A DNA stretch of 28,320 nt from Nephila pilipes (lineage: Eukaryota): contig BMAW01101096.1 in NCBI GenBank assembly GCA_019974015.1, positions 406,909 through 435,228 of the forward strand, in the 5' to 3' direction. Under the pieces are notes generated by a model that was given only the letters and a program-made list of their open reading frames with translations, did no database searches and was not told the DNA's origin. Shown one piece after another: positions 535 through 24,540 of the stretch. Numbering within the stretch: position 1 is the first letter of the stretch; every line of letters starts with the position of its first letter. A program made the position numbers and the translations under genes.

Positions 535-817
535 GTGGCCTCGGTAGCTTATGGATCATGATCGCGGCCGCGCGTTTTCGTTGAGTCGTAGATTCGAGCA
601 TTGATGGCACAAAAGACCCGCCATGTAGCCAGGGCTGATGCACGTTAAATCTGTAGTGTCTCAAAGTCCTCACGTTGGCGTGGTGTGGAAGTTAGGAGTG
701 GGAGGTGCCAGCTCAGGTGTCATCCTCGTCACTTGACCAAGGTTCAAAATTACGAGGTACGTTGCTATTCGCCATCGTGTTGCTTCGAGTACAACGTTAA
801 TAAAACCAACCAACCAC
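535..817 (+). mobile_element. tRNA-derived SINE, copy 1 (full length, ~283 bp)
   Basis: The head is tRNA-like: gtggcctcggtagcttatggatcatg...gtagattcgagc, with A-box and B-box-like motifs. The conserved core is ggctgatgcacgttaaatctgtag...tcaaagtcctc. The 3' domain is gtcatcctcgtcacttgaccaaggttcaaaattacgagg...gccatcgtgttgcttcgag. The tail is cgttaataaaaccaaccaacc. It is flanked by T-runs. It contains a NotI site, gcggccgc, at 564-571. Confidence 0.8.
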
Positions 818-3570
818 TTTTTTTTTATTAACAATATCAAAAAAGTAAAACATATAATGTGCTATGTATAAAGAACAAATCACTTTATGAAACTTCAAAA
901 TTAATTGGATGAATACTATTAAATCTTAACGGTAAATTCAGCATTTTACACCTATTAACAGCATTGGTTTTTAACCGATAAGATTAAAACCTAGACGTAA
1001 CTATACTCGTATCAGCCTCTTAAACATAACAACTCTGATAAAAATCGCTGTGCTCGCAAGAAGCTTTTAAAAGATTAATATAAATGAAATTGTTTCAGAC
1101 TCACACACACAATGTCACAAAAATTGGCTATCTGATTATTAGATTCGAACCTAATGTTACATTCCATAGAAAATAAGTTTCGACAAGTTTTCAGAATTTT
1201 TTTATAAATCAATTAATTTTAGTTTTATTTCATATTAATATCAATATGTTTCTGGATTATATTCCTATTTAGATTTCAATATATGTATTTCTTCCTATTT
1301 GGTCATAAAAACTTTCTAAGGATCGTACATATTAATTTTTTATTTACTAAGATTTCTCTCCTTATTTGCGCTCGATGTCTAGTAGTTCTATGGACTGTAA
1401 AAGACCTTGAAAAATTTAATGCTTTTTCATTTTCAAATAAGCACGGGAAAGAGGATTCTTCAAGAAATTTGCGATAGCAATTTTCAAAGTTAAAGTTGCC
1501 TCTAATCTTAATTAATAGTCACTTTCAAATATATTTCCTTAGCGGACGACATATTATAGGGATTTTGCGGTAAAGAAGGCAGAGAATGAAACTGAGCTTT
1601 GTTGCTGAAGCGGAAGAAGAAGTGGTCTTCTCCAATCGTAAGAAACGAATTCTTTGCCTACAGAAAAATCACAAATAATTCATGATTAAGTGAGATATAA
1701 ATTTCAGTAGAATTCTCTGAATATAAGGCTATATTAACATTTTTTTTTTTTTTTTTTTTGAAATTATCAAATGAAATATTAGATCATCCAATCATTAGGA
1801 TCATACTCATAAAGAAAAATTCCATAAAATACGAAAAGCAAAATAGCTCAAAATTTTTCCACTACGTAATAGTATATTTGAAAAATCTCATAATACAATC
1901 ATTTTTTGTCAAATGTCATATTATCAGTTCAAATTATCTAATTATCATTGTAGCGGGGACTCTATGGCATTTTCCCTCCAACTAACACTTTGGAAATTTT
2001 TGTGATGATATTGTTTGAATTGAAAACTTCTCCCAATAAATGAGACGTGACTAATGTTGATTGAACAAGAGTTATATTTGATAAATTGCATTTACAAAGA
2101 GCGAAGAATTTCATTCTGAAGTTGTTCGTATAATAAGTGATAGTGAGTTTAAGTTATTATGTAAAACATCTGTATCAGACCTACTTTGAATAAGAAGCTT
2201 TAGGAATGAACCCATATATGATCTACAAAAGGTTAAGGGATCGAATCCTCGTCAACAAATCTTCAAAGGATTCGACCCGGTTGGTTATATAAGACAAAAA
2301 TTAATCTATTATTTTAAACATTAGATCAGACGCGTATAGAAATTGTTGCCATCGATGAAGTAGATTAGGGATTAAATACTGATCATTCGTAAATCTGAAT
2401 AAAATAATTTCGTTATCATCTTTGTTGGAGTCTCTATTCATTTGACTGTGACTAGTGACTCTTACATACTGAGAAGGAAAGAAGAAAGAAGTAATAACGA
2501 GGCATTACATAATGATAAAATTGTAAAATAATAAAAATAATAAAATTTAATGATAACAAAATTCTCTTGTTTAAAAATTAATTTAACATGCTTTAAATAA
2601 ATGTTTTAGTTAACTCGTAAGTGTAAAGTAAATAAAAATATTTTTCTTGTTCTATGAAAGTGGAATATTTAATGTTAGGCACTCCATCAAAAGCCATCTT
2701 GAAAGATGGTATTGGTATTGCTGTAGAAAAACTGAAGGCGTGGATGGTATTTTACTGTCGGCTACTAAAATATTCGCTGCTGTTGGGGGTACGTATATTT
2801 AACAAGACTAGTAATAGTGTTGTGGTTCTTTATCAATAATTATGCATAATTAGAAACTTCAACTACAATATTTTTCGTAAAATGTTTGTTATATTGGCTG
2901 GACGATTAATTTAGCATGCTTCATGTAGAGGAAAATGTTTTGTAAGCACATGCGCCAATTTTTGCACAACATTCTTTAACATACTTCGGCAACTTTCATA
3001 GTGTTTTTTGAAACATTCGGTGGAGTTCATTAGGAAATGATTAAAATGAGTAGTGCAGTACCTGCGATCGTATGCGAGCATTGAATACTTTTTTTCTTAT
3101 TTCTATCTCTGATCTATCATCTTATTTTCTTATACACTAACTAACTACTGGAGAGTTTAGAAGTGTTCATATGGGCATAAGGACAACTCCGTCTATTTAA
3201 CAATAACAAAAAAAAAAAAGATATTTATTCTTCTCTGAGATCGTTTCGCCCCCACTTCTTATAATGAAGTTCGGATCGTGTCTCTTTCAAGACACTCACA
3301 ATCCCTCACCTATACAAAAGAGGGGTTACCATATTTTTTTTCTCCTTGCCAACAGACGTCATATATATTACATGTGTAACCACCAACGTTTGGATGAAGG
3401 AAGGAGAGAGGGAATTGAGCCGAGAAATTTGCGGAAGGGCAATCTCAAGACCAAATTGCTAGAGGTATTAATTTAAAGTCCAGAGTTGTGTACACAACTT
3501 ATAGAGACAGTAAAATAAGAATGAATCCGTAGTGAGAAGTTCTGAGCAAGGTTGTCCAAGAGCCACGGCA

Positions 3571-3620
3571 ACAATAAATAATATTTAAATATTATACAAT
3601 AAATAATATTTAAATATTAT
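3571..3620. repeat. 25-bp tandem duplication (acaataaataatatttaaatattat x2)
   Basis: Two exact adjacent copies. Confidence 0.85.
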
Positions 3621-3811
3621 TTCTTGTATAGTATAAATATGAATAATAATATTAAATATGAATAGCTTGGCGGAACTGCCAGGACATCCTACACTTAATA
3701 CTTTAAAGTATATTTCAAAAAAGTTGACTTAACATTTAATATTATTTTAGACCATATTAAAAGTCCAAAGTGGATTGGAATATCATGGATCCCATAATAC
3801 TGTCAATTTTT

Positions 3812-4097
3812 TGTTGTTGTTGGTTTTATTAACGTCACACTAGAAGCAACACGAGAGCTATTGGTGACAGACCTCGTAATTTTGAGAATCGGTCAAGTGA
3901 CGAGGATGACACCTGAGCTGGCACCTCCCTCTCCTAACTTCAACACCATACCAATGCGAGGACTTTGGACCCCGACAGATTTAACGTGAATCAGCCCCGG
4001 TTATACGAAGGGTCTTTAGTAGCATCAAGACTCGAATCTGCGACTCGACGAAAACCGCCAGACTCGAGTTCGCAGCCATAGGCAACCATAAGGCTGT
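3812..4097 (-). mobile_element. tRNA-derived SINE, copy 2 (full length, inverted relative to copy 1)
   Basis: The reverse complement aligns along the whole length with copy 1. The tail is ttgttgttgttggttttattaacgtcac (rc), then ...cctcgtaattttgagaatcggtcaagtgacgaggatgacacctgagctgg...ttaacgtgaatcagccc...gactcgaatctgcgactcgac... Confidence 0.8.
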
Positions 4098-5204
4098 CAA
4101 ATGTGAGATAGTAAGTCACTTTTCTACTTAACTGAAATTCCTTCAGCTTTATTGGATATTCATGAACACAAATAAAATTTGAGCGTATGAAACAAACTTT
4201 ATTTTCTCGATGCAAAGATTCAGTTAAGTTCCTTTCAATGAGAAAAGAGTACGTAGTTCAATAAAAAGAAAAAAGCATTATTGTGAATTAATTTAAAATT
4301 ACTAGCTTTATTTTCAGGACAATTATTAATTATATTTAAAAAATGCTGTTGTACGAATGTATGATCGTACAGAATTATATACATGACTCGTGTTTCTCAT
4401 TTTGTAAGTTTGGGTCTGTACAAAGTAGACCCAATTTAAATTAACGTGTTTTTATTATTCTCTTCGACAATCTTTAGAAAGATCAGAACTCAAACAGCTT
4501 ATTTGAGCTCCACCTCCAATAAAATATAAGATTCTACTATTCATTTTCATAGGCTTCAATCTATCAAAGCTATTTTTTATAATCCAATTTGGATCGAATT
4601 GTATTTATTGTTGTTCATATGTAATAAGTGATCGTTAAATATTATATTACCATAAAATATTTCGTCTAAGACTTCTTTGAGAAATATTGATCGCAGATTG
4701 CCCTTTAAAGATGAAAATTAATATGCATTTTCTGTAGAATATAATTTTAAATATTATAATCAATTTGATATATTTACCTTTTTAAATAGCTCCATAATGA
4801 AATCTTTTAAGAAAATAATGAAAAAATATTTGTTAATTTTTTTTTTAAATTTTTAACTAGTCTTTTGATTTTAGTATTTGATAAATGACCAATTTGATAT
4901 TAATCTGCTTAGTAAGAATCTAAAAGTAAAAAATTTCATTAATATTATCTATTTTTAAGACATTTATTGTTTAGATAAAAGTAAGTTGATTTTGAAAGTT
5001 AGTAGTTTTGAAAGTAACAATAATTAAACTTTCGTTTTTAATCTAATGTATCATTCTTTTAAAATAATATTTCCTTGTGCTTCATCTATTCTTAGCTATC
5101 CATATATTTTCTTTGAAAGGATTTTCTCAATTTTTAATTCTCTTGTACGTAAACTAGCATTCTCTGATCACAAAAATCCGAAAATGTGACCAGTTACACC
5201 TTTT

Positions 5205-5508: not shown

Positions 5509-5923
5509 ATGCTTTCGAATAAATTATACATCTTGTTGTTGGGTGCTATAGTTTTCCAAATCACCGCCATTGATGCGAGACGAAGACGTTTTAGAGAATG
5601 TCCAGAGGAGAGATTAAAAGTTCGGGAAGGTATGGCAGATGTTGTACTTACTGGTACTGTCAAGCGACTGTATAGTGGCCAAGATAATCTATATAGTGGA
5701 GAAGTTTTGGTAAAGAGGGTTGTGAAGGGGGATCATCTAAGTTCTGGCGAATCACTTCTAGTTGAAGGTTTTGGCAATGCTGAGATTTGCTCTAGTAAAG
5801 CAGTTGTGAGAGACACAAAAATATTCCTTTTGAGTCAACTAGAAACTGGAAGATTTAGACTTAATTCAAGTATGGTCAGAATCAACGCACCAAATTTGGA
5901 TAAAATAACAGCTACGGTGAAAG
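5509..5923 (+). CDS. AGRN: Agrin-like first coding exon: signal peptide plus NtA (N-terminal agrin, laminin-binding) domain; ends at a GT donor (AAAG|GTAAAATAAG), phase 1
   Basis: ORF 5509-5961 translates to MLSNKLYILLLGAIVFQITAIDA, a hydrophobic signal peptide. It continues ...ECPEERLKVREGMADVVLTGTVKRL...LLVEGFGNAEIC...DTKIFLL...RLNSSMVRINAPNLDKI. This aligns motif-for-motif with the vertebrate agrin NtA domain ([24 protein letters not shown] ... ISGFGDPLIC ... DTRIFFV ... LMLNSSLMRITLRNLEEV). A canonical donor gtaaaataagt follows codon position 1 at 5923. Confidence 0.75.
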
Positions 5924-7651
5924 GTAAAATAAGTCTTTATTATTTAGGATACATAGCGTAATTTTTAAATCAAAGCTCATTATTGTTCAGATTAAATTTA
6001 AATGATGATTGTTTTTAAAAGAAATATGAAAAATCCCAAAAATTGTGCAAAATTCAAAAACAAATAACTTTTTAAATCTAAGGTGCATATTAGTTTTTAC
6101 TTCGAAAATTCTTGTATTTTTTTTTATTTAATGTGTTAAAATAAACCATTTAAAAGCCTAAAATTTTCAAACATATATTATACGAGAATGAAACTCTTTC
6201 CAAAATTTCAAATATTGAAAATAATCAATAAAATTAAACATTTCAGCATTGTTATATTTGAAATAATTTCATAATAATTTTTTTATATTGGAGCAAACAT
6301 TTCTATCAGTTTATTAAATCAGGTGCATGAATTTCAAATTCATGCCTTATGATTTCAATTTTTCATTTTATCAACAATGAAGTCATATTATTGTGCCGGA
6401 TTTGTTAACTAATTCATAGTATAGATTGATAAAATTATATTCAGACTTAACTTTAAAAACTTGCTATGTAACATTTAATGCAAAATTTAATTATTCGTTA
6501 CATCGCGCATTACGCATTGCAGCTTTTAAATTAATTTAATTATCAATTTTAAATTAACATATCTTTTTTTAGTACTTTAAATAGTTAATTTCCTTACATG
6601 ATTTTTTAATAACTGCAAAAAACGAAAAAAACTCTTAAAATTTATAATTTAAAATTTACATATTTCCAGATTGCTATAATTTTATAATACTTTTAATATA
6701 TATTTTAGGAGCAAATATTAATATTTTCTAAAATATATTAATTCTCTATAAGTTTTCATAAAATCTTATGTAAGTCGATATTCTTTTCATATAATTTAAT
6801 TTAATTTGTTTTTCATAATTGTACAAAAAAGTCTAATATATATTAGTATTATAATTAACTGTACCAGTAATACAATTAATTTAATCAAATTAAAATTACT
6901 TAAAAGTAAAAACTGATAATAGAGAAAATAAAGATAAAATTTTTCCATTATTCAATTCTCATAAAGAAAAAAAGGAATTATTGAAAAAATGAATCAAATT
7001 AGACAATTTATAACTTCAAAACACTCCACTGAATTGAGTATTTCGAGTGATGGTTCAAAGTGTTTATTAATTATTACGTGATGGCAGAATTAGAATAGAA
7101 AGTTAAAATGGGAATTAAAATGACTGAAATTACTTAAAATAATGTTTAAGATAAATTTATTTGAGTTTTCTAGTTTCTTTTTTCGAAATGCATTCTAAAT
7201 ACATTATATTCAATAAACCTTTAGCAGCAAACAAGTTTGTAAAATAAATTATCCTGGACATATTCCGAACATATTTGAAAGTAATACGACATCATTCGTT
7301 CAATACATTTGGTTTCTATGGTGTATTGTTTGCTTTTGAAATATATTTAATTTGGTAGATTTTAATAAATCTGAGATTCTTGTAGTTAAAATATGAAGCA
7401 TCACCATCAAATGTTAGAGAAATTTAACATTGCGAAACAAGAACTACAAATATGGATAATTTTATTCAGCACCATGTTGTTAAATAAAGGAAGTTTCAGG
7501 TTGTCGCAATAGGTACGAACGGAAATAAGAAGAAACGCCTTATCAAAAACATAAGCTGAACGAGAGTTAAATGTTTAATTACATGCTTACCTATTTTTAT
7601 ATGATAGTTTGATCATGATTTTCGCTAATCTTTTACATACATATACATACA

Positions 7652-7654
<3 letters not shown>

Positions 7655-7688
<34 letters not shown>
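7655..7688. repeat. (AT)n microsatellite
   Basis: atatatatat... about 17 units. Confidence 0.95.
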
Positions 7689-7690
<2 letters not shown>

Positions 7691-8100
7691 TAGAAAAAAA
7701 CCAGCCTTACAGTCTAAGGCCTGTTACAATATTAAACATATCATACTCCATTCACTTGCTTTTCTTCAATAGTTGATTTAATTCAGTTTTTCAATTTATC
7801 CATGTCTTTGTGATAATGTTGATTGTTAACAATTTATTTTTTTGTTTAATTTACCTTCTTTTGAAAGTTTCTATAGTATATATTTTTCTTCTTTTATGGT
7901 TAAATTTGCATATTTATTTTAATTTTTATTCGATTCTTTGTTTATAATTTTGTTTACTATTCTGCTTCCAAGCAAATGCGCTTAAACTTATCAGGGTTAA
8001 TGTAAATATTTCGTGTTTTTGTCACAAGTCTAATATTACGCAATATTTAGTTATAAATTATATCCCTAAAATTCTCAGATTTAATGAACTTCTAAATAAA

Positions 8101-8395
8101 GGGATCGCGATAGTCCAGAGGCATGGTTAAGCACTGACGATTTGTGGTTTTTGTCGAGTTATGGGTTCGAGCCTGTGAAGCCAAGAAAGATCCACTGTGT
8201 AGCCGGGGCTGTTGCACGCTAAATCTGTCGAGGCTCAAAGACTTCCCATTGGTGTTGTGTGGAAGTTAGGAGAAGGATGTATCAGCTCAGGTGTCATCCT
8301 CGTCACTATACCGAGATTCAATATTACAATGGTCCGTCGCCAATAGCCCTCGTGTTTCTTCCCGTCCGACGCTTATAAAACCAAATAAACCAACC
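8101..8395 (+). mobile_element. tRNA-derived SINE, copy 3 (full length)
   Basis: The head is gggatcgcgatagtccagaggcatggttaagcactgacg...tatgggttcgagcc (A box and B box). The core is ggctgttgcacgctaaatctgtcgagg. The 3' domain is gtcatcctcgtcactataccgagattcaatattacaatgg...caatagccctcgtgtttcttc. The tail is ttataaaaccaaataaaccaacc. Confidence 0.8.
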
Positions 8396-8655
8396 TAAAT
8401 AAAGGTACTTTATGAATCCCAAAGGAAAAATTATCCCTTTTATCACATATACATATACAAAGTTTTCCGCTCTTCTATTTACAAAAAATATCTAAATATT
8501 CCGCTTCATTTATATTAATATTAGTTTGAAAGAAATTTACATACTCTGGATAAAAAGATAAGACTGGTTTAACATCTTTATTCATTTGAAAAAAAAAATA
8601 ACATCATCCATGTATCAAAACATTCTAAAACTATCATAATTAAAAAATTATCGTC

Positions 8656-8672
8656 ATAAAAATGTAAAAAAA
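8656..8672. repeat. Left target-site duplication of the LINE insertion (ataaaaatgtaaaaaaa)
   Basis: This is an exact 17-mer that is also present at 10114-10130, immediately after the element tail. Confidence 0.6.
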
Positions 8673-10113
8673 CCCCATTTAACCTACATATCAGAGAAGT
8701 GTGAAAAGCTGCAACAGGGATTGGGCAGAGTTGCACGAAACACTTATGGCATCAATTTTAACGTGCATTCACTTATCTATAAACAAGGAATTCAACCGTT
8801 CATTATGTACGGCTCAAGGGTTTGGGGTGTTTCGTTAAAGAAGAAAATAAATTCTAAACTTTTGAGACGGATCCAAAGACGAATACTCCTACGAGCTATT
8901 TCTGGATATCGAACTTTAAGTTATGAAGCTGTGTTTATAATTTCTGGTTTTCCGCCAATTGACATTGTTATTTTAAATGACATTGGTCTCAGAGAAAAGC
9001 TCGCAGCCTCTTCCTCTTCAGGTTATGATTGTGTTTTGCTTCCCTCTGATCTTCCCCACCCTTCAGAGAGAAATGCCATACAATTGATTGAATATAGTTC
9101 AAACTCTGAGGAAGAATTCCCTATCACGGTTTTTACTGATGGCAGGGTGGGTTTTGGTTTTGTTGTCTTTCGGAAAGGTATTGAAGTTCAGTACTTACAA
9201 TACAGAATCAGAGACGAGTGTACTGTTTATGTGGCTGAACTTTTATGCTTAAATTTCGCCATCAAGTGGATTGTTCAACAAAACTGTGTTGCTTCGAACT
9301 ATTTGATCTGTTCTGATTCACTCTCATCCTTGGAAACATTAAAAAACATTTCTTCCTCGAATGATATTGTTGTTGAAATTCAACAGCATCTCAAACACCT
9401 CAAAGATCAGAACATTACTGTTTGTTTTTCTTTTGTACGTGGACATTCTGGTATTTATGGCAACGAAAGGGCTGACTTTCTGGCAAAGACTGCCACGAAG
9501 CGGGAAATTGATCTTAATGTTAATATTCCTCAATCCTATTTTAAAAAGATTATGAGGGAAAGTGTCCTGAAATCATGGAACGAAATATATATTGAATCAA
9601 ATACAGCAAGCATCACGAAAAGATTTTTTCCAGACGTCAATATAAGAATGTCTTACCATCACTTCTTCACTAGCTTTAAAATTACGCAATTTCTAACAGG
9701 TCACGGTAACTTTAAAAAATACCTGAATAGATTCAATTTAAGTTCGAGTACAATTTGCAACTGCAGCGCCGGAGGTGATGAGGACATTGAGCACATTCTG
9801 TTTCTATGTTCAAAATTTGTCTCACAGAGAAATATTCTTAAATTAGCTTTGAAAAAATTAAACATTAACTGGCCTCCAAATTTTAGTAATTTAATTTCTA
9901 GTAAAAGTTCTTTTGTTCTTTTTATCAAATATATTGAAGATATTTATAATCCTTCTTAATTTTTGTTTGTACATTGTTTAATCACATGTTTTTGTTGTTC
10001 TTGCCTACTGTAATATAGTGTTTTATACTTACTTCTGTAAGCCCTGTGTGATACTTAGTGGTACACAGGGACGTTGTTTGTTATTCAATAAAAAAAAAAA
10101 AATAAATAAATAA
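8673..10113 (+). mobile_element. 5'-truncated non-LTR retrotransposon (RNase-H-containing I/LOA/R1-group LINE), 1.44 kb, with a poly-A/(TAAA)n 3' tail
   Basis: It contains the ORF2 C-terminal coding fragment described below. It ends ...ttattcaataaaaaaaaaaaaataaataaataaat. It is flanked by a 17 bp direct repeat ataaaaatgtaaaaaaa at 8656-8672 and 10114-10130, consistent with a target-site duplication. It lacks the 5' UTR, ORF1, endonuclease and most of the RT, which is typical of 5' truncation. Confidence 0.8.
8694..9959 (+). CDS. LINE ORF2 C-terminal fragment: RT thumb region, RNase H domain and C-terminal Cys/His motif (no internal stops)
   Basis: In the translation, IMYGSRVWG...LLRRIQRRILLRAISGYRT is the conserved post-RT motif of non-LTR elements. 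The RNase H motifs are FTDGRV (D), VYVAELLCL (E), ICSDSLSSL (D) and VRGHSGIYGNERADFLAK (H..D). It ends with FLTGHGNFKKYL...ICNCS...DIEHILFLC, the TGHG/CxC...H....C motif seen at the C-terminus of I-type elements. Confidence 0.8.
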   Translation, partial: EKCEKLQQGLGRVARNTYGINFNVHSLIYKQGIQPFIMYGSRVWGVSLKKKINSKLLRRIQRRILLRAISGYRTLSYEAVFIISGFPPIDIVILNDIGLREKLAASSSSGYDCVLLPSDLPHPSERNAIQLIEYSSNSEEEFPITVFTDGRVGFGFVVFRKGIEVQYLQYRIRDECTVYVAELLCLNFAIKWIVQQNCVASNYLICSDSLSSLETLKNISSSNDIVVEIQQHLKHLKDQNITVCFSFVRGHSGIYGNERADFLAKTATKREIDLNVNIPQSYFKKIMRESVLKSWNEIYIESNTASITKRFFPDVNIRMSYHHFFTSFKITQFLTGHGNFKKYLNRFNLSSSTICNCSAGGDEDIEHILFLCSKFVSQRNILKLALKKLNINWPPNFSNLISSKSSFVLFIKYIEDIYNPS

Positions 10114-10130
10114 ATAAAAATGTAAAAAAA
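10114..10130. repeat. Right target-site duplication of the LINE insertion
   Basis: This is an exact copy of 8656-8672. The exact boundary with the A-rich tail is ambiguous by a few bases. Confidence 0.6.
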
Positions 10131-10450: not shown

Positions 10451-11907
10451 TTAAATATAAAAATAGTAATTAGTGAAGGTGCTTGATTTGGCTTATGTTG
10501 GGTCTCTGGGTCTCTATGAAAGTATAATATGGGGGGGGGAATTAATATATCTTCTTTTGTGGAAGACTGTCTAAGTGTATAAACTAATTTCAAGTCTCAG
10601 CGTTTATTAAAAACAACTTGCTTTGAGTTAAACCACATTTGAGAAAGTTTTTCTTCCTTTGAAACACTCGTTTACTATAAATTACATATTATTCACAATA
10701 ACTACTTGCATGTCATGATACTATTTCATTCTTATTAAAAAGTTAGTTTTTTAAAATAATTCATCTGTACCACTGCCTTTAATTTTTATTGCTCTCAAAA
10801 TCAAAAATATAAGGATGTTTAAGGCAGAAAAATACCTGTTGATTTATTGCAATGATAACAAACTTAAGTTCATAAAACTAACTGAAATATGAAATCCGTA
10901 TTTGTTTATACCAGACCATTTAATTTCCTATTTTCGTTTAATATTACTATAATTTACCTGCAGCTGAAGTAGAAAAAGGGATAACAAAGGAATTCGTTAT
11001 GTATTCTTCTGAGATATAAAAAAAAAACCACAAAAGAATTTTTAAAATCATATTACTTTGAAAGTCAAATCCACTTATTAAAAATAAAAATTAAATGTAT
11101 CAGATTTGCTACAATGGAAGCCTCTCCATTTCATGAAAACCAATTGAAAAAGAAAATCAGATTCCCTTGAATGAGTTTTGACGAACGAAGATTTACACAT
11201 GGGGAATATATATCGCTTTCAATTTGTAGTTATAAAACACACACACATTTGACTTTAAATTTTTAAAGTACTATTTCCAAACGCTATCATAAAATGGTTA
11301 TTTAAAGAAAGGAGTGAAACAACATTTTATGCAGGTATATAAATAAAAAGCTTTGTGAATTTTTTTAAAAGCTCAGAAAGGAAAGCAGTTCTCAAAAAAT
11401 CTTGCTCACAACACCGATATTTTTTTGTAGACAGATTGATGGGCGTGAGAGAAATGAAGAGTGTAGAACAAAAAAAAAAACCTGTACTGATTCTGTGTAA
11501 TAAAAAGACGTGCTTAGTTATAACATTCAAGAATTGCCATTACTCATTCGCAATGCTATTTTTTTTTATTTTTTTTTTTATTATTTTCTTCGGTTTGTAA
11601 AATTCTTTCATAGAAAAACGAACAATAAACTGGAATATCAAAGAGATATTTCCTTTTTGTATGTTATGGTACAAGGTGAGATGTTTTGTTTAATTAAGTG
11701 GGTTATTGCAAAAAAGATTATATTCCGAAAATATGATGAATTACATTTATATAGCCATTTAGCCAACATTTGAGTTATTTATCCACAGAACGAAAAAAAA
11801 TATATATTATCTCATTTCATATAATAATGCAATAGTCTTACCGTCGTTGGGGTGAAAAGGAACAAAACAGATACATTTTTTCAGAATCTTACAATTTTTC
11901 CAATCCC

Positions 11908-12008
11908 CCATCGTCACTTGACCGAGGTTCAAAATTACGAGGTCCGTCGTCAATAGCCCTCGTGTTGCTTCTAGTGCGACGTTAATACAATCAAATCAAT
12001 CCAATCAC
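11908..12008 (+). mobile_element. tRNA-derived SINE, copy 4 (5'-truncated, 3' ~100 bp only)
   Basis: The sequence is tcgtcacttgaccgaggttcaaaattacgaggtccgtcgtcaatagccctcgtgttgcttctagtgcgacgttaatacaatcaaatcaatccaatcacc. It matches the 3' domain and CAAT-repeat tail of the family. Confidence 0.75.
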
Positions 12009-15902: not shown

Positions 15903-15934
<32 letters not shown>

Positions 15935-16699: not shown

Positions 16700-17990
16700 A
16701 ATAAAGTAAGTTTCGTCAGTTTCTTGAAAGAGTAGATGATACACCGGATGAAATAAACAACCGCTATAAAAATCCACACGAAACGATGGAAATAGCGTCA
16801 GCAGGCTCAGAGTGATGAAGACAAGAGAATAGCAGCTTAACGGCGTGCCCGAGGTTTTTCGAGTACATATCATGGTGGCAGACAGACGTGTACTGACATT
16901 GGGGTGAGCAGTAGAAGAATGCGCTGTTATCGGGTATGAATGTACACGTGGGACTAATGTGCCCGTCATCCATGAACGTCTATAGACCATGTATGGTGAA
17001 CAAGTCATGTCTCGTCGAAAGGCTGGACATTTGTGTTGTATATTCCATGAAGGAAGGCAGAGTGTGGAGGGTAAAGGTCGAATTGGGCTTCCCTCCGCAT
17101 CCACGAATGAAAACAGCATTGCTAGAGTACAGGATATGGTGTTAGCCGACAGGCACATAACGGTGTCAGACGTAGTGTCCATACTGCGTATTGGTTGTGC
17201 TCAAGCCCATCACCTTCTCCATGATGTATCAGCAAGATGGGTGATAAGAAACCTAACCTCGGATCACAACAGTGAGAGAATGGGAATCAACCTCGATCAT
17301 TTGATACGGTACGCGCGAAAAGAAAATGAGTTCCTGTTCAGAATCATCGCTAGAGTTGAAACGAGTGCTCCACTTCACCCCAGAAACCAATACCTCCTCA
17401 ATGACAGGGAAGCATCCCAGTTCACCAAAGAGGATAGCATTCAAAGTTCTGGGACCCACCACAGGAAATGTTGACACTATTCAGGGACGCGAAAGGTGTG
17501 ATTATCTTTGATTTCCTTCGTCAAGATACCATTAAAGCGGAACGCTACTGCGACACCCTCTCCAAACTCGGGTCCATCATTCGATGAAAGAGAGCACGGC
17601 TCTTGAGTCTAGGTGTTGTGCTGTTTGATGACAAGGCAAAACTACTCACAGTAAGGCTCATGCAAGATCAGATTCGTTGTTTCGGATGGGAGAGATTTGA
17701 TCACCTGGCCTACAGCCCCGATCTAGCCCCCACGGACTGTCACCATTTCCCTGCATTGAAAGCCGCACACTCGGGACGTCACTTCCAAATCAATGCTGAA
17801 GTAGAGCAGGCTGTGCCGCAGTTCCTTGCATATCAGAACATCGAATTTTTCCAGAGTGGTTTCTTCAAACAACTGATTGCACGCGACGATAAATGTCTCA
17901 TTGTAGGTGGAGGGTTTATCGAAAAGTAGTGCAATGTGTATAACTTATGATGACATAGTTTATTATTATTAACAATTTTGGCAATAAAAT
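16700..17990 (+). mobile_element. Degenerate mariner-like element (MLE; Tc1/mariner superfamily); terminal inverted repeats (TIRs) not confidently delimited, boundaries approximate
   Basis: It contains a mariner transposase-homologous reading frame, described in the next feature. It is followed immediately by a compound (CT)n(CA)n(AT)n(GT)n microsatellite at 18033-18124. Confidence 0.7.
16872..17929 (+). pseudogene. Mariner transposase pseudogene (at least 2 in-frame stops and 2 frameshifts)
   Basis: The N-terminal part is in one frame: M..VIHERL*TMYGEQVMSRRKAGHLCCIFHEGRQSVEGKGRIGLPS..NENSIARVQDMVLADRHITV...SARWVIRNLTSDHNSERMGINLDHLIRYARKENEFLFRIIARVETSAPL. Compare Mos1 HRMLVEAFGEQV...WFQRFKSGDF...RWVPHELNE...FLHRIVTGDE. 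It then shifts to LHFTPETNTSSMTGKHPSSP (WKHPGSP motif). It then shifts again to VLFDDKAKLLT...WERFDHLAYSPDLAPTDCHHFPALKAAHSGRHFQ...EQAVPQFLAYQNIEFFQSGFFKQLIARDDKCLIVGGGFIEK. Compare Hsmar1 LLHDNARPH...YEVLPHPPYSPDLSPTDYHFFKHLDNFLQGKRF...FQEFVESRSTDFYATGINKLISRWQKCVDCNGSYFD. Confidence 0.8.
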
Positions 17991-18032
17991 TTCCGTGTGA
18001 AAAAAAATGACAACACTTAATTTTAGAATATC

Positions 18033-18047
18033 CCTCTCTCACACACA

Positions 18048-18124
<77 letters not shown>
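18033..18124. repeat. Compound microsatellite (CT)n(CA)n(AT)18(GT)19 directly 3' of the mariner remnant
   Basis: cctctctcacacacactc, then (at)n at 18051-18086, then (gt)n at 18087-18124. Confidence 0.95.
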
Positions 18125-18126
<2 letters not shown>

Positions 18127-18624
18127 GATTTTCCAGCTAATTATTAAGCAATTAATTTTATTTTTTCAATCTATTGTAAAACCAGTTCCTCCGATACTCA
18201 ATAGATGTCGCCACGAATCAGAGTCATGTGATAAGCTCATGTAGCGCCACCTATCCCAGAACAAAACTAAGTGACACTTCGTTTTCGCTCTGTCTCTCTC
18301 TTCTCTTCTCCTTCGTTACCCGCGTCGGAAGTTAACTTCAAACGCCCGAGGGCGTTCCAGCGCCCATCGCCAATATGGGTTAAATGAGGCAGCCATCTAT
18401 CTTTATCTGACGAACTGGTCAACTTACTTTTCATATCATAGTGTAAATACTTTTCATTCTTCATCATCTCTCCTAATAAACAAATAAAGCTACTGCAAGC
18501 TTCATCCTTGAATATCATCAACAACATTACATGGAATCCGAAACTACCCCCTAGACAACCAGCCCATTGCGTAAGAGCAAACCATCGTAGATTCGGGATG
18601 AACAATCTCCTTCACCCCAATATC

Positions 18625-18627
<3 letters not shown>

Positions 18628-18710
<83 letters not shown>
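18628..18710. repeat. Compound microsatellite (TA)n(GATA)n(GA)n
   Basis: atatatat...atagatatagatagatagatagatagagagagagagaga. Confidence 0.95.
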
Positions 18711-19355
18711 TTTCTGAACTTTAATATTTTACTATTCTGAGATATAACATTTCAGATGTTAAAAAAGTCGAATGGGTACTTCATGTGTATCAGTTTCCAT
18801 TTGTTACTAATTAAATCTTTATATACATAAAATTTCTGAGATTTTATAATCTATTTCCTATTTTTTTTTACGTTTCATCCATGTTAGATGACACCCTCCT
18901 ACACACATACGTTTGTGTGTATGTGTATGGTCTCATATTTATCTTTAAGCTGCTTTATTGATTACTTACTTTGTATTTTTAAACATAGGTCTATGAAAAA
19001 TCTCACAGTTTATTCTCTCTAAAAATGTTCTCGTGTTGCCTATAAATTTGACGTGATATTGGCTAAATATATTTTTGAAATAATTATTTTTTATTTTTCA
19101 AATAAAACATATCATTTTGATAGTTATAAATTTTAAATAAAGTAAGCGGACTGAAGGTTTTAGGAACCTTGAAATAATTTTTAAGAACTCGTGCTTCTAT
19201 AAAGGAGGATTTGTAGGTGGCATTTTCTTATCTTATATTTTTCCCAATAAGAATATTTTTTAAGAAAATTACAAAATGAATTTCTCTTATATATTTACCT
19301 ATTCGTCTTAAATGAAAGAGAAAAAAACCAGTTAAATTTAGTTAATTATTGTATA

Positions 19356-19628
19356 CGAGATTTGTTTCAATTCGAACACTTGTTCTAAGACATTCAAAAA
19401 TAAATTGAGTATTTTAATTTTCAAAAATTTATGCTCTGAAACCTGAATTTTATGAATAAATGGACACATTTAAGAATGTTGATTATTATAAACGAGATCT
19501 GTTTTGATCCCATCACTTGTTTTAAAACATCCAAAAATAAACTAAATACTCTAGTTTTTAAAAACTTATACTCTGAAACCTGAAATTAATGAATAATTGG
19601 ACATATTTAAGGATGTTGAACCATAACA
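19356..19628. repeat. Tandem duplication of a ~137-bp unit (2 copies, ~80% identical)
   Basis: Unit 1 (19356-19492) is cgagatttgtttcaattcgaacacttgttctaagacattcaaaaataaattgagtatttt...ctctgaaacctgaattttatgaataaatggacacatttaagaatgttga. Unit 2 (19493-19628) is cgagatctgttttgatcccatcacttgttttaaaacatccaaaaataaactaaatactct...ctctgaaacctgaaattaatgaataattggacatatttaaggatgttga. Confidence 0.8.
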
Positions 19629-20510
19629 AAAGATGGAAGTCAATGACCTTTCCTATCGAAGAAAACATTATTCCTCTCAGCTTTTACTTCGAATTTCAGC
19701 CGTTGAAAACTTTAAGTGTAAACTTGATGATTAATTGTCTCAAAGGAAAGGTTAAGCAGACTTTGAAAATATTACATCTTTATTCTCTCGCTTGAGTAGC
19801 TACCTTCATTTGCAACTTATCCGGGCTAAATACCAAAGGATCATGTCATGTTAAATTTCATATTCAATTTTTAAAGTGCATAATATCATTGAATTTTGAA
19901 TCCTGAAGGAGAACGGGGAGGCTTTGCTAGGCATGGACGTTATTATTAAGAAATGAAGTATTTAATAATCGAGGTATCGGTAAAAGAAAAGAGATATCTA
20001 GACCTAATCATTTGCTCTTTAAAATAAAATATTAATCAATCGTAATTATTCAAAAAGGGAAACAACTCATTTAAAATGTTCAGTAAATAATAATTTTTTT
20101 AAATATATTCTAAAGTAGAAAAATTGATAATTATAACGAACGAAAAGCTAAAAATAAGGATGTGTATCAATTTTAAGCTTACTTTCGATTTATTCAGAAT
20201 GAAATAAAAGCATTTTCATACAGAACTATTGCGTTAAATCCATTTTCCTTCACAACTCTTATAAGAATGTAACGCGTTTCTTAACAAAATCATTTAACTT
20301 ATTTTCTAAGATCTTATTTAATTCCTGGTATGCTTATCAATTTCGTTGTTCAGAAAACATGCTTAAAATCCTAGAATTCTAAGCTTTCTAACATATTTTC
20401 TAAGATATACACGAACGAATAAAATTTCGAATGCTATATGATTAATTTATTTGTTCACCAACATTTTTACTGCCGGTGTAAACTAATACGCACACACGCA
20501 TGTTTATATT

Positions 20511-20740
20511 GTTGTTGTATATATTATACCTATATATGTATATGTATATAAGTATGTATATGTATAATATTATATATAATATATAATAATAACTTCAACA
20601 TGTATAATATATATAATAACATATATTCATATATAATAACTATATATACTTTCTCACTTATGATATATATGAATATATTATATATGTATTATTCATAATA
20701 TACATATATATATGATATATGTATATAAAATCTTTATAAA
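20511..20740. repeat. Low-complexity TA-rich imperfect tandem/inverted repeat block (tatatgtata / tataataa motifs)
   Basis: About 230 bp composed almost entirely of A/T, with recurring tatatgtata, ataatatatat and tatataataac motifs. Confidence 0.8.
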
Positions 20741-21308: not shown

Positions 21309-22640
21309 ACACTGGCCTTCAAAAGTTAAGGTACAACCGGTTTTTTGCATTTATTTTACAAATTAATGAATGCAGAAACAACAAATTTGAAGGAAATGTG
21401 CATTAAACAGTTATCTATTAAATGCGTCAAAGAAACTTACTTCAGTTTAAAGCAAAAATGATTTACAACAAAAAAAAACATTCTTGACGGAAAAGTTCAT
21501 TCTGGAGAATACATAATATTACAGTTTTATGCGGTAAAATGTCACAGAAACATTATAAAACAAGGTTTTAATAAGGAATGTGTCCACCCCTAATGTCGTC
21601 AATTAAGTTGTTGGACACCGAAATGAGAAGCGATGGCCTGACACGAAGTAAACCCTGTTCCAGCTCATGTAACGATCTTGAATAAGGACTTAAAACAGCA
21701 ACCTGTCTGCCAAGATAGTCCCAAAGATATTCTACCAGATTCGGGTCCGGAGATTGAGCTGGCCATTCCGTTCGCTTCAAACCGTTTTCTCAAGATAGTC
21801 CTCAACAACCTCACCTCAGTGAGGTCATGCATTATCATCCCTCAGAATGAAATCCATACCAATAGCACCAGCACATGGATGGACATATGGATCAAGTATC
21901 TCATTCCAGTGTCTCACACCAGTCAGAGTTCCTCCATGGAACACATGCAGATCAGTGGGATCCCTGTCCAAACTATGATTCCACTACCTCTATAACCGTG
22001 CCTTTCAAAAGTGTTGGGTTGATGGTATCTGATGCGTTGTTCACTACAGATCAGCAGACTCCCTGATTTGTTCTCCAGAGGGAATCTGTGCTCCTCTGTG
22101 GAGAGTACAGGACCCCATTGCTGTTTGGTCCAGGAAAGGCGTTCTCTTGCCCAACATAAGCAGGGCCCTTTACTGTTGTCCGATGAGAGGAACACATACA
22201 ACTAATCGTATTGTATACAAACCTGCATTGTGAAGGCGTCTTCGCGCTGTAGTAGCGCAGATTCTTCTTCCTGATGCTACAAAGTGTTCTGCAACGAGCT
22301 GCGGCACAGTATTAGTTCTTCTCCTTTTGGGACGAAAAAGCCAGAAAATGTTTTTTTGCAGGTGTTGTAGATCGTGGTCGGCCAGGAACATGTCTTCTGG
22401 ACACAGAATCTTCGGATTTATATTGATTCCAAAGTCGTTGGACTACACTGCAAGACACATTGAGACGTCTAGCAGCATCAGTCGGTGATAACCCTATTTC
22501 CATCTATCCTATCGCCCGCCTCCTTAACGAATCAGCTAAACGATTTCTCCTAGACATTACTAGACTCTACTGACTATTGTCAATGAAACTGCCTACAACA
22601 ACTGAAAATAAACAATTGGAGTGTAACTTGTAATTTCATA
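21309..22640 (-). mobile_element. Degenerate Tc1-like element (minus strand); 3' terminus precise, 5' terminus approximate
   Basis: On the plus strand at 21307-21320 the sequence is ta|cactggccttc. This is the reverse complement of the Tc1-family terminus …GGCCAGTG|TA with a TA target dinucleotide. Transposase-homologous ORF fragments lie between 21568 and 22503. The 5' TIR is not clearly recognisable. There is a weak candidate near 22800-22818. Confidence 0.65.
21568..22503 (-). pseudogene. Tc1-like transposase pseudogene (fragments in three frames)
   Basis: These are minus-strand ORFs. 22503-22312 gives ...LSPTDAARRLNVSCSVVQRLW...PGRPRSTTPAKKHFL (HTH plus the SGRPR-TT motif). 22391-22170 gives ...ATTARRRLHNAGL. 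22201-21923 gives ...WTKQQWGPVLSTEEHRF.L.......RYHQ.......GSGIIVWTG (compare Tc1 W..W..VLFSDESKF.L...GGGSVMVWG). 21780-21568 gives EWPAQSPDPNLVEYLWDYLGRQV...LEQGLLRVRPSLLISVSNNLIDDIRGGHIPY (compare [20 protein letters not shown]...AW..IP...I.KLIDSMPRRC..VI...G..TKY). Confidence 0.8.
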
Positions 22641-22812
22641 AGAAGCTTTATTTTTAATTGTTCAATTTGAAAATATTTATAAGGCGATATAATGTTGAAA
22701 TTTTTAAGTGAAGAATATAAAATTGGATGAATGTATCATTTTCTATCAAATGCAATAGGTTAATATAATTTTAAAAAGAAATGTATGTCTATTTCACTTA
22801 AGAATCCTTCGT

Positions 22813-23092
22813 GGCAGTGGTAATCATGGCATGGCATCGAGCTCACGACCAGCGTTTATTCAGTCGAGTCGAGAGTTCAAGCCCTGATACCACTGAAGAT
22901 TCGCCGTACAGCAAGGCTGATGCACGTTAAATCTGTCGAGTCTTCGAGTCCTCACTTTATGGACTTAGATTATATGAAGCCAGGTGTTGACAACTCAGAT
23001 GTTATCTTCATCACTTGACCATGGCTCAAAATTACGATGTTCATCGCCAATGGCTCTCATGTTGCTTCAAAGTATGAAGCAAATAATCAATC
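22813..23092 (+). mobile_element. tRNA-derived SINE, copy 5 (full length)
   Basis: The head is ggcagtggtaatcatggcatggcatcgagctcacg...gagagttcaagccc. The core is ggctgatgcacgttaaatctgtcgag. The 3' domain is tcatcacttgaccatggctcaaaattacgatg...gccaatggctctcatgttgcttc. The tail is aaataatcaatca. Confidence 0.8.
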
Positions 23093-23220
23093 ATTTAAAA
23101 CTGTCTCATTTTGATGCTTCACTATGAAAACCTTTTATAGTTCAAAAAATAGAATTCAGTTGTCATAATCTTTTTCAAAATTCAGCTAAATTCTATTGAT
23201 TGTGGAAATTAACATCTCTT

Positions 23221-23485
23221 TTAAAAGTAACACAAGAACTACAGGAGATGGATTTCTCAGTTTTGAACCTAGGTCAAATGACGAGGACGACACCTGAGCT
23301 GGTATCCTGCACTCCTAATTACCATACATTTCTTACGTGGGAATACGCAGCCCATCTTAACGTGCCTCCGCCCCGTAATGCGAGGAGTCTTTAGCGGCAC
23401 TAAGCTCTGGAGCCTACGACTCTACAGAAACAACTTTAGTCTCCAGCTCGCGATCATGGCCACTAAGCTATCTTGGCCACTCAGT
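23221..23485 (-). mobile_element. tRNA-derived SINE, copy 6 (near full length, inverted; forms an inverted pair with copy 5 across a ~128 bp spacer)
   Basis: The reverse complement matches the family: ...ttttgaacctaggtcaaatgacgaggacgacacctgagctgg...cttaacgtgcc...gtaatgcgaggagtctttagc...ctccagctcgcgatcatggccactaagc. The tail end is more diverged. Confidence 0.7.
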
Positions 23486-24250
23486 TAACTTTTCATAAAA
23501 ATAAGCAAGTAAAATCTTTAGAACAAACTATTTCATCATTATTAATAATTCTGAAGAACTAATTTTAATGGATTGTGTAATATGTATTACTTTTAAATAC
23601 TTCCTTTTTCCATGTTATAGATTGATGCTGTTTTCTATAGCAATTTGTACTGTTTCTATATCCACTGATTTAGAGGAAAGAATTTAAGTTCTTAGGCTCA
23701 AAAGATTTCAAGATCTGATAAATATTATACCAAAAAAAAATGATATCCAGTATGCATAAAAATACATTCCAACTATTTTCCACGCTGTAAATTTTTTATA
23801 TAAAAGAGAGAAAACAACACAATCAAACGAACCAGAAGCAGAACAAGAGAAGGGAGGTTAGAAGATAGCCACTCACTCGATCTTCTTGACGAAAGGGACG
23901 GACGAAGGAGGAAAAGACACACATTCCCCCGGACGTTATTCAACCCGATTGTGCTAGATGAGAAAGGGTTAATATCCCCCCCCGTCGTAAATAATACAGT
24001 TGTTATGTAAAAGCTTTAATGACCATGTGTAGGGGGGATACTTAAACTAATTTATGTAGTTTCTCACACTGATATTGATAACCCAAGTCTGAATTTAGAT
24101 TTAGATATCGATATTATAATTGAAACTTCTAGACATTATATTTTAGAAACTTGTATCTTCCCAGGTTCTTAGTTACATTTGGTTGTTTTCCATTCCCCTA
24201 AAATAGAGGCTTATTCTTGTTTTTTCTCTCAATCGCTCTCAGAGAATATA

Positions 24251-24540
24251 TTGGCCGCATTGGCCGAATGGTCTTGGTCTTGAGCTCATGAGTGGCGTTG
24301 TTACGACGAATTATGAGTTAAAGCCCTTTAGCCATAAAACAGCCTTCATGTATTGGGATTTGTGTACTTCAAATCTGTCGAGGTTCAAAGTCCTCGTTGG
24401 CGCGGTGTGAAAGTTTGGAGAGGGAGGTTCCAGTTCATAAGTGTCATCCTTGTCAATTAACCGAAATTCATAATTACGAGTGCGGTCACAAATAGTTCAC
24501 ATGTTATTTTAAAAGTACTACGTTAATAAACAATCAATCA
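24251..24540 (+). mobile_element. tRNA-derived SINE, copy 7 (full length)
   Basis: The head is ttggccgcattggccgaatggtcttggtcttgagctcatgag...tatgagttaaagccc. The core is aaatctgtcgaggttcaaagtcctcgttggcgcggtgtgaaagtttggagagggaggt. The 3' domain is gtcatccttgtcaattaaccgaaattcataattacgag. The tail is cgttaataaacaatcaatca. Confidence 0.8.

What the first reader, a model, noticed from the sequence alone, without database searches (positions are those of the whole stretch)
535..24540. A tRNA-derived SINE family with a conserved core and a (CAAC/CAAT)n tail, present in 7 copies in 28 kb
Five full-length (~265-295 bp) and two partial copies share three parts. The head is tRNA-like, with TGGNNNNGTGG-type A-box and GGTTCGAGCC/GAGTTCAAGCC B-box motifs. 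The central block is ggctgatgcacgttaaatctgtcgag...tcaaagtcctc. The 3' domain is gtcatcctcgtcacttgacc.aggttcaaaattacgagg...gccaatagccctcgtgttgcttc. The family ends in cgttaataaaacc(aacc/aat)n rather than poly-A. Copies are about 75-85% similar by eye, so the family looks old. Its 3' end does not match the tail of the LINE in this window, so its autonomous LINE partner is not evident here. The density is high: one copy per ~4 kb, including two inverted pairs. I could not match the central domain from memory to CORE, Deu, V, Ceph or MetaSINE, so it may be a lineage-specific or undescribed family.
Basis: seen in the sequence. Interest (0 to 1): 0.6.

Follow-up and report, generated by a model that had tools for sequence, protein, structure and literature searches.

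The report
Spider SINE family, seven copies
The window is spider DNA around the agrin gene, and it holds seven decayed copies of a ~285-bp non-coding retrotransposon (a SINE with a tRNA-like RNA polymerase III promoter head) that is common in orb-weaver relatives; this is an ordinary kind of genomic parasite, though no paper I could search describes this family.

Summary
Six full-length copies, one 5'-truncated copy and one weak fragment align end to end. All end in short (CAAC/CAAT)n-type repeats. Three copies have significant target-site duplications (TSDs), and there are no terminal inverted repeats.

The window is araneoid spider DNA, from the agrin locus. The same family is dense in Trichonephila clavipes, about 11 copies in 25 kb. 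One T. clavipes copy sits inside another with a perfect 13-bp TSD. The family also occurs in Larinioides and Oedothorax. Its central domain occurs in Parasteatoda and Oedothorax joined to a different 3' body.

The consensus head carries perfect A and B boxes. No tRNA model recognises the head, so the tRNA of origin is unassigned. The 3' domain shows hairpins with compensatory changes, which is moderate evidence of structure. The R1/I-like LINE in the window ends in poly(A) and shares nothing with the SINE tail, so the partner LINE remains unknown.

Verdict: a genuine LINE-dependent SINE family and a new member of a known kind. Interest is low to moderate.

The parts
535..817 (+). SINE copy c1, full length. 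Head 535-~606, central domain ~607-673, 3' domain 675-807, tail (CCAA)n to 817.
   Evidence: nhmmer E=1e-78. Sequence read. T-rich TCD-like flanking repeat CATTTTTTTTTT / CACTTTTTTTTT, p=0.01. 88% identical to the consensus.
3807..4093 (-). SINE copy c2, full length, inverted relative to c1. Lies ~1.4 kb upstream of the agrin NtA exon. Tail is (CAA)n followed by an A run.
   Evidence: nhmmer E=1.9e-79. Sequence read. Exact 7-bp TSD TTGACAG at 4094-4100 and 3800-3806, abutting both ends. Inverted repeat I1 with c1.
8103..8394 (+). SINE copy c3, full length, in agrin intron 1, just upstream of the LINE fragment.
   Evidence: nhmmer E=1.1e-74. TSD CTAAATAAAGG at 8092-8102 and 8395-8405, p=0.0035. 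B box GGTTCGAGCCT has 1 mismatch and the A box has 2.
11910..11999 (+). SINE copy c4, 5'-truncated. Only the last ~90 nt of the 3' domain plus a (CAAT)n-like tail remain.
   Evidence: nhmmer E=2e-25, model positions 219-303 only. TSD TCCAATCCCCC / TCCAATCACCC at 11899-11909 and 12000-12010, p=0.023. A 5' truncation flanked by a TSD is the signature of target-primed reverse transcription (established knowledge).
22811..23093 (+). SINE copy c5, full length and strongly decayed (74% to the consensus).
   Evidence: nhmmer E=8e-66. Sequence read. No convincing TSD.
23195..23480 (-). SINE copy c6, full length, the most divergent copy, with an altered central block. Lies tail to tail with c5.
   Evidence: nhmmer E=3.7e-59. 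54-63% pairwise identity to the others. A box TAGCTTAGTGG has 0 mismatches. Its 3' stem CATCTC/GAGATG keeps pairing through two double changes.
24251..24539 (+). SINE copy c7, full length and decayed (76% to the consensus), with a (CAAT)n tail.
   Evidence: nhmmer E=4.9e-64. Sequence read. The 7-bp repeat TCAGAGA lies 5 nt from the 5' end, so the TSD is uncertain.
24890..24966 (+). Possible eighth, very decayed internal fragment of the family.
   Evidence: nhmmer E=3.1e-5 with the broadened profile, model positions 150-228. Not examined further.
8640..10125 (+). 5'-truncated R1/I-like LINE (C-terminal part of RT plus RNase H, 3' UTR, A-rich/(AAAT)n tail). Context only; it is not the SINE's partner.
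   Evidence: Pfam RNase_H E=1.2e-9. Best relatives are T. clavipes 'R1DM-like' RT+RNase H proteins at 64-67% identity. Its 3' UTR is 84% identical over 82 nt to the T. clavipes relative and ends in poly(A). It has no similarity to the SINE tail.

Best explanation
These are decayed insertions of a ~285-bp non-autonomous retrotransposon, a SINE of araneoid spiders. Each element has four parts:
- a ~90-nt tRNA-like head carrying RNA polymerase III A and B boxes;
- a ~65-nt conserved central domain (…CCACTAAAGACC…GGCTGATGCACGTTAAATCTGTCGAGGCTCAAAGTCCTC);
- a ~135-nt 3' domain;
- a short degenerate (CAAC/CAAT)n tail.

Inferred mechanism. A few source copies are transcribed by Pol III from the internal promoter. 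The reverse transcriptase and endonuclease of an as-yet unidentified LINE recognise the structured 3' domain and the repeat tail ('stringent' recognition, as with L2/CR1/RTE-type partners, rather than poly(A) recognition). That LINE copies the RNA into nicked chromosomal DNA by target-primed reverse transcription. This creates TSDs of variable length and occasional 5' truncations.

What is shown: repeat family, boundaries, TSDs, a truncated copy, a nested insertion, A/B boxes, presence across several spider genera, and modular sharing of head and centre.

What is inferred: Pol III transcription, LINE dependence, the role of the 3' hairpins, and tRNA ancestry.
For: - Global alignment of 7 copies and nhmmer E-values down to 1e-79.
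- Full-length copies start at the same position.
- TSDs of 7-13 bp at c1-c4.
- T. clavipes relatives carry a 14-bp TSD (CCGGAAGAAAAAAA, read) and a perfect 13-bp TSD around a copy inserted inside another copy.
- A 5'-truncated copy has its own TSD (c4).
- No terminal inverted repeats.
- All reading frames of the window copies contain stop codons.
- A and B boxes are perfect in the consensus. T. clavipes copies have 0-1 mismatches with the canonical 44-nt spacing, against <1% of random windows.
- The consensus is 56% G+C in a ~30% G+C region.
- Tails are short degenerate repeats, never long poly(A).
- The family is found in T. clavipes (~11 copies at E<=1e-3 in 25 kb), Larinioides and Oedothorax. 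The central domain is found in Parasteatoda.
- 3' helices: 79.6% of cells are paired against 18-56% when partners are slid. 4 of 6 pairs of helix S2 change on both sides. Covariation is 0.211 against 0.144 in shuffles, with 3 of 500 shuffles as high. S2 appears in the minimum-free-energy fold of 4 of 5 diverged single copies.
Against: - No tRNA model recognises the head. The best result is 15.6 bits, E=7, on one T. clavipes copy.
- No partner LINE with a matching 3' end was found in about 290 kb of spider DNA.
- RNAalifold gives no consensus structure for the 3' domain, and single-copy folding z-scores are only -0.2 to -2.3. The helices were proposed from these same sequences, which inflates the pairing counts.
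- Three of the seven window copies lack convincing TSDs.
- There are no expression data.
Confidence: 0.85

Rival explanations
1. The copies are 5'-truncated 3' ends of a LINE (or pieces of another long element), not an independent short element.
For: Many relatives in Larinioides and T. clavipes consist of the 3' domain only, starting near the same module boundary. The 3' domains of SINEs are often LINE-derived (SINEBase definitions, PMC3531059).
Against: Six window copies and several T. clavipes copies share one discrete 5' end with A and B boxes, and the TSD lies directly upstream. No RT-like ORF lies upstream of any tail hit. The only LINE family seen here has an unrelated poly(A)-ended 3' UTR.
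Confidence: 0.05
2. It is a non-autonomous DNA transposon (MITE) that happens to contain tRNA-like boxes.
For: Its size (~285 bp), high local density and frequent location in introns are also typical of MITEs.
Against: There are no terminal inverted repeats (score 7 against a null of 5.4±1.1). TSD length varies from 7 to 14 bp. It has a 3' simple-repeat tail and a 5'-truncated copy with its own TSD (c4).
Confidence: 0.03
3. It is a family of short protein-coding exons or genes, because its translation matches hundreds of annotated spider proteins.
For: Frame 0 of the consensus reads …LMHVKSVEAQSPHVGVVWKLGEGGASSGVILVT*. It matches T. clavipes 'hypothetical proteins'. A profile of it finds 1275 protein clusters at E<=1e-3.
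Against: Every window copy has stops in all three frames. The matching proteins are short, unnamed and have no Pfam domain on record, and all 16 whose source names were seen come from T. clavipes. Some contain the element in different frames or twice (P0019, P0020, P0024). The match often ends at the element's in-frame TGA. Copies are dispersed with TSDs.
Confidence: 0.02

Closest known systems
tRNA-derived SINEs with a conserved central domain and a LINE-related 3' end (CORE-SINE/MIR-type architecture; SINEBase class 'tRNA head - body with central domain - simple-repeat tail', PMC3531059)
   Same: It has the same modular layout: a Pol III A/B-box head, a central block shared between families with different 3' bodies, a structured 3' domain, a short-repeat tail, TSDs and 5' truncations.
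   Different: The central block could not be compared with the CORE, V, Deu/Nin, Ceph or Meta consensus sequences, because none is available in the tools. The head is not recognisable as any particular tRNA. The A-to-B spacing in this species' consensus is 55 nt, against 44 nt in a tRNA and in the T. clavipes copies.
Stringent-type SINE/LINE pairs such as eel UnaSINE1/UnaL2, where a 3' stem-loop plus a short repeat tail is recognised by the LINE reverse transcriptase (Kajikawa & Okada 2002, from my own knowledge)
   Same: The 3' end carries hairpins that keep pairing through compensatory changes, and it ends in 2-4 units of a 3-5-nt repeat instead of poly(A).
   Different: No partner LINE with the same 3' end has been found, so shared-tail recognition is inferred and not shown. 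The structural evidence is moderate only (one search gives no consensus fold).
Ruka, the SINE family of ixodid ticks (Sunter et al. 2008, cited in PMC3531059 ref. 73), the chelicerate SINE in the SINEBase reference list
   Same: It is a chelicerate host, and the element is short, abundant, and found in both genomic and transcribed or annotated sequences.
   Different: Homology is neither indicated nor excluded.

Membership tests
SINE (as defined in SINEBase, PMC3531059) | Short (about 80-600 bp), dispersed, multi-copy element with discrete ends | tested here: met
   Units are 283-292 bp. There are seven dispersed copies on both strands and dozens more in four other spider genera.
SINE (as defined in SINEBase, PMC3531059) | 5' head with an internal Pol III promoter (A and B boxes) | tested here: met
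   The consensus matches TRGCNNAGTGG and GGTTCGANNCC with 0 mismatches. T. clavipes copies have 0-1 mismatches. Random 100-nt windows reach <=1 mismatch in under 1% of trials. Actual transcription was not tested.
SINE (as defined in SINEBase, PMC3531059) | Insertion by retrotransposition: variable-length TSDs, 5' truncation, no TIRs | tested here: met
   TSDs of 7-13 bp at c1-c4. Nested T. clavipes insertion with a 13-bp TSD. Truncated c4 has its own TSD. No TIRs.
SINE (as defined in SINEBase, PMC3531059) | 3' tail of simple, often degenerate repeats | tested here: met
   (CCAA)n, (CAA)n and (CAAT)n tails, 2-4 units, in all copies.
SINE (as defined in SINEBase, PMC3531059) | Non-autonomous: no coding capacity, mobilised by a partner LINE | tested here: inconclusive
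   Stops occur in every frame of every window copy. The partner LINE was not identified.
tRNA-derived SINE (SINE2) | Head alignable to, or foldable as, a specific tRNA | tested here: inconclusive
   Rfam tRNA model: no hit at E<=10 in the heads searched (window c5, c6, c7 and an Oedothorax head) or at E<=1 window-wide, and one 15.6-bit hit (E=7) on a T. clavipes head. ARAGORN gives hits only at relaxed thresholds, with inconsistent anticodons. In favour: the T. clavipes heads show the tRNA-like 44-nt box spacing, and GTGGC…GCCAC ends that could form an acceptor stem are visible in the sequence.
Known central-domain superfamilies (CORE, V, Deu/Nin-DC, Ceph, MetaSINE, alpha, beta) | Central domain alignable to the superfamily consensus | not testable with these tools
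The supplements of PMC3531059, PMC11481361 and PMC4824008 are not held. Full-text searches for 10-18-mers of the element found only unrelated primers.
Partner of the R1/I-like LINE present in the window | Shared 3'-terminal sequence between SINE and LINE | tested here: not met
   Local alignment of the SINE 3' domain against the LINE 3' UTR scores 14, against a shuffle mean of 14.9. The LINE 3' UTR is conserved in T. clavipes and ends in poly(A), unlike the SINE.

The most novel reading that the evidence does not exclude
The head plus the ~65-nt central domain (…GATGCACGTTAAATCTGTCGAG..CAAAGTCCTC) may form a conserved module shared by SINE families across Araneoidea. It is seen in Theridiidae, Linyphiidae, Araneidae, Trichonephila and the window species. 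It has repeatedly recombined with different LINE-derived 3' bodies and tails: (CAAC)n/(CAAT)n here, a different body with (CAAC)n in Oedothorax, and a different body with (GAAT)n in Parasteatoda. That would make it a previously undescribed spider SINE superfamily with its own highly conserved domain, comparable to CORE or MetaSINEs.
Probability: 0.4. Interest if true: 0.45.

Novelty: new member of a known kind. Interest (0 to 1): 0.3.

Why it matters
Practical value comes first. This element makes up about 6.5% of the window and is denser still in T. clavipes. Its open frame is being annotated as protein: a profile of it finds 1275 clusters of short proteins, and every one whose source name was checked is an unnamed T. 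clavipes prediction. A curated consensus would clean up spider gene sets and repeat masking.

There is also some biological value. A head and centre module shared by families with different 3' bodies across distant spider families would add a chelicerate case to the open question of why some SINE central domains are conserved over long periods. Finally, dated SINE insertions would be usable as phylogenetic markers in Araneoidea.

Tried and rejected
- Exact-pattern scans of JGI metagenome contigs and GTDB genome contigs with two conserved 24-28-nt patterns found 0 matches each.
- Full-text searches for 10-18-mers of the element found only unrelated primers. Topic searches for spider SINE descriptions found only genome papers that report SINE percentages.
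- Supplements that might hold SINEBase, HCD or MetaSINE consensus sequences are not held.
- Empty-site comparison of c4 with the orthologous agrin intron of Trichonephila, Larinioides and Caerostris failed. The introns are too diverged to align.
- tRNA assignment with ARAGORN and Rfam failed or was inconsistent.
- I first read the 3' end as an H-type pseudoknot (ACGAGG pairing with the downstream CCTCGT). The data fit this no better than two consecutive hairpins. The T. clavipes CCACGT/ACGTGG double change favours the upstream pairing. I therefore do not claim a pseudoknot.
- The search for a partner LINE found no RT ORF next to any tail-only copy. The window's LINE family was excluded.
- Pfam did not support my by-eye mariner/Tc1 reading of ORFs at 16989-17929 and 21923-22201.


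Full report
WHAT THE WINDOW IS. The window is AT-rich (about 30% G+C) and full of (TA)n and (CA)n microsatellites. The ORF at 5509-5961 is the NtA domain of agrin (Pfam E=1.3e-21). It is 82-84% identical to agrin of Trichonephila clavipes, Larinioides sclopetarius and Caerostris darwini. Identity falls to 78% for Oedothorax and about 70% for Parasteatoda, Stegodyphus and Uloborus. A second conserved block at about 12990-13220 corresponds to the Kazal exon of the same gene in all seven spider loci I fetched. The window is therefore nuclear DNA of an araneoid spider whose own proteins are not in the databases, covering the 5' flank and first introns of agrin.

CHECK OF THE OBSERVATION. A profile built from them recovers each with E-values from 1e-78 to 2e-25, plus one weak extra fragment at 24890-24966. 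Six are full length (283-292 bp) and one (c4) holds only the last ~90 nt. CpG positions of the consensus have decayed slightly faster than other positions, 26% against 19%. All copies end in 2-4 units of CCAA, CAA or CAAT after …CGTTAATAAAAC, and never in long poly(A). The two inverted pairs exist.

IS IT A RETROTRANSPOSED ELEMENT? I compared 30 nt upstream with 48 nt downstream of each copy, and did the same for 2000 random placements. This gives TSDs for c1 (p=0.01), c3 (CTAAATAAAGG, p=0.0035) and c4 (TCCAATC[C/A]CCC, p=0.023). c2 has an exact TTGACAG abutting both ends. c5, c6 and c7 are unconvincing. The truncated c4 has its own TSD. The consensus has no terminal inverted repeats. In T. 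clavipes DNA fetched later, one copy is flanked by a 14-bp duplication (CCGGAAGAAAAAAA). Another full-length copy sits inverted inside a third copy, flanked by a perfect 13-bp duplication of the host copy's own sequence (GGTCCGTCGCCAA, L010 174-186 and 461-473). Variable-length TSDs, 5' truncation and nesting are the marks of LINE-mediated target-primed reverse transcription (established knowledge).

THE HEAD. The profile consensus contains TAGCCTAGTGG and GGTTCGAGCCC. These are exact matches to the A-box (TRGCNNAGTGG) and B-box (GGTTCGANNCC) consensus. Individual window copies have 0-3 mismatches. T. clavipes copies have 0-1 mismatches with the canonical tRNA spacing of 44 nt, whereas the window consensus has 55 nt because of an insertion. 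Random 100-nt windows reach <=1 mismatch in under 1% of trials. The ends GTGGC…GCCAC could form an acceptor stem.

No tRNA detector recognises the head. ARAGORN finds no tRNA in the window and nothing in eleven single heads at its default, 90% or 80% thresholds. At 70% the anticodons disagree. On the consensus it gives only an 87-nt 'Ala(CGC)' cloverleaf at relaxed settings. The Rfam tRNA model finds nothing at E<=10 in the window and Oedothorax heads searched, or at E<=1 window-wide, and gives 15.6 bits (E=7) on one T. clavipes head. I therefore call the head tRNA-like with a Pol III promoter. tRNA ancestry is likely but unproven, and the tRNA species is unassigned.

RELATIVES AND MODULES. 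I fetched the agrin loci of seven spiders and three further T. clavipes loci, about 265 kb in total. Profiles of the whole element and of its three modules gave the following:
- T. clavipes: 11 copies at E<=1e-3 in one 25-kb locus, and others in every locus.
- Larinioides: one decayed full-length copy and four 3'-domain copies in 51 kb.
- Oedothorax: one element with centre plus 3' domain, a short 3'-domain fragment, and one 350-bp SINE with a head of the same kind and the same centre but a different body, ending in (CAAC)n, with TSD CTGAAGGAGG.
- Parasteatoda: two elements with the same central domain, another head, the same alternative body as in Oedothorax, and a (GAAT)n tail.
- Caerostris, Stegodyphus and Uloborus: no hits in single samples of 20-28 kb each, which says little.

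The central domain is thus kept at about 80% identity between families that differ elsewhere, in spider families that separated long ago. That is the pattern of SINE 'central domains' (PMC3531059, PMC4824008). Whether it is one of the named domains could not be tested.

A SIDE EFFECT: FALSE PROTEINS. One frame of the consensus is open across centre and 3' domain (…LMHVKSVEAQSPHVGVVWKLGEGGASSGVILVT*). It matches T. clavipes 'hypothetical proteins' that are plainly made of one or two element copies, sometimes in other frames. A profile of window translations and these proteins finds 1275 protein clusters at E<=1e-3 and 280 at E<=1e-10 among 1.84 billion representatives. All ten sampled are T. 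clavipes predictions. All window copies carry stops in every frame, so this is annotation noise and not a gene family.

THE 3' DOMAIN. In an alignment of 20 tails from three genera, two helices keep pairing.
- H_A: CCTCGT…ACGAGG. It becomes CCACGT…ACGTGG in a T. clavipes subfamily.
- S2: CGTCGC…GCGACG. Variants are ACGTTG/CAACGT in c1, GTCAC/GTGAC in c2, CATCTC/GAGATG in c6, and CGTCCCT/AGGGACG in a Larinioides copy.

Counting gives 79.6% of cells paired, against 18-56% when partners are slid by 1-3 columns. 4 of 6 S2 pairs change on both sides. The covariation score is 0.211 against 0.144±0.020 in shuffles, with 3 of 500 shuffles as high. An alternative pairing of ACGAGG with the downstream CCTCGT, which would form a pseudoknot, scores the same, so I do not choose it. 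S2 is part of the minimum-free-energy fold of 4 of 5 diverged single copies, but z-scores are weak at -0.2 to -2.3. RNAalifold returns no consensus fold on these decayed copies. The helices were derived from these same sequences. I rate this as moderate evidence for a structured 3' end of the kind that stringent LINE reverse transcriptases recognise.

THE PARTNER LINE. The LINE fragment at 8640-10125 encodes the C-terminal part of an RT followed by RNase H. Its relatives are T. clavipes proteins named after R1 elements, with RVT_1, Exo_endo_phos_2 and RNase_H domains, at 64-67% identity. Its 3' UTR is 84% identical over 82 nt to that of the T. clavipes relative, and both end in AATAAA plus an A run. 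It has no similarity to the SINE 3' domain (score 14 against a shuffle mean of 14.9). No RT-like ORF precedes any tail-only copy in the loci. The partner remains unknown.

VERDICT. This is a genuine, old and abundant SINE family of araneoid spiders with a modular build. It works, as far as sequence can show, like other Pol III-driven, LINE-dependent SINEs with stringent 3' recognition. I found no published description and could not query Dfam, Repbase or SINEBase. I therefore file it as a new member of a known kind. There is a fair chance that its head and centre module defines a spider-wide SINE superfamily.

Noticed in passing
window 5509-5961 (+), 12990-13220 (+), 19718-19871: The first is the agrin NtA-domain exon. 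The second is a block (Kazal exon) conserved at 77-82% DNA identity in the agrin loci of the other spiders. The third is a conserved block shared with Larinioides and Caerostris. The SINE copies lie in the 5' flank and introns of this gene.
   Followed up: partly
window 8640-10125 (+); L010 4001-5825: A 5'-truncated R1/I-like LINE (RT C-terminus plus RNase H). Its 3' UTR (window ~10018-10097) is 84% identical to a T. clavipes relative and contains an inverted repeat, CCCTGTGT…ACACAGGG, before the poly(A). This is unusually strong conservation for non-coding sequence between these species.
   Followed up: partly
T. clavipes proteins P0019-P0168 (e.g. GFU98560.1, GFX33515.1): A profile of the SINE translation matches 1275 protein clusters at 50% identity, and 280 at E<=1e-10. 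All sampled are short T. clavipes 'hypothetical' or 'uncharacterized' proteins. This is annotation contamination by the SINE.
   Followed up: yes
L010 24-536 (T. clavipes): A SINE copy is interrupted by an inverted full-length copy of the same family, with a perfect 13-bp TSD (GGTCCGTCGCCAA). This is evidence of successive waves of activity.
   Followed up: yes
L005 7075-7424 (Oedothorax) and L007 15600-15835 (-) (Parasteatoda): A second SINE family shares the central domain, and in Oedothorax also a head of the same kind. It carries a different body (…GTTCCCATAMCAAATCAATACCTCTGG…) and (CAAC)n or (GAAT)n tails. The Parasteatoda copy also keeps a GGTCAAAATTACGA motif like the window family's GGTTCAAAATTACGAGG.
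   Followed up: partly
window 16989-17929 (+) and 21923-22201 (-): These are G+C-rich ORFs. By eye they resemble mariner/Tc1 transposase remnants (…YSPDLAPTDCHHFPALK…). Pfam gives no significant hit.
   Followed up: partly
window 19341-19619: Two tandem copies of a 137-nt AT-rich unit, 81% identical to each other. Origin unknown.
   Followed up: no
window 18028-18136 and 18612-18688: (CA)n(TA)n(TG)n microsatellites give sub-threshold Rfam hits to miRNA families (mir-3149, mir-1277, mir-297). These are low-complexity artefacts, not miRNA genes.
   Followed up: yes
L002 3397-5259 (Larinioides): A ~375-bp tandem array with five near-identical 108-120-aa ORFs on the minus strand, upstream of agrin. 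It looks like a satellite-like repeat and is unrelated to the SINE.
   Followed up: no
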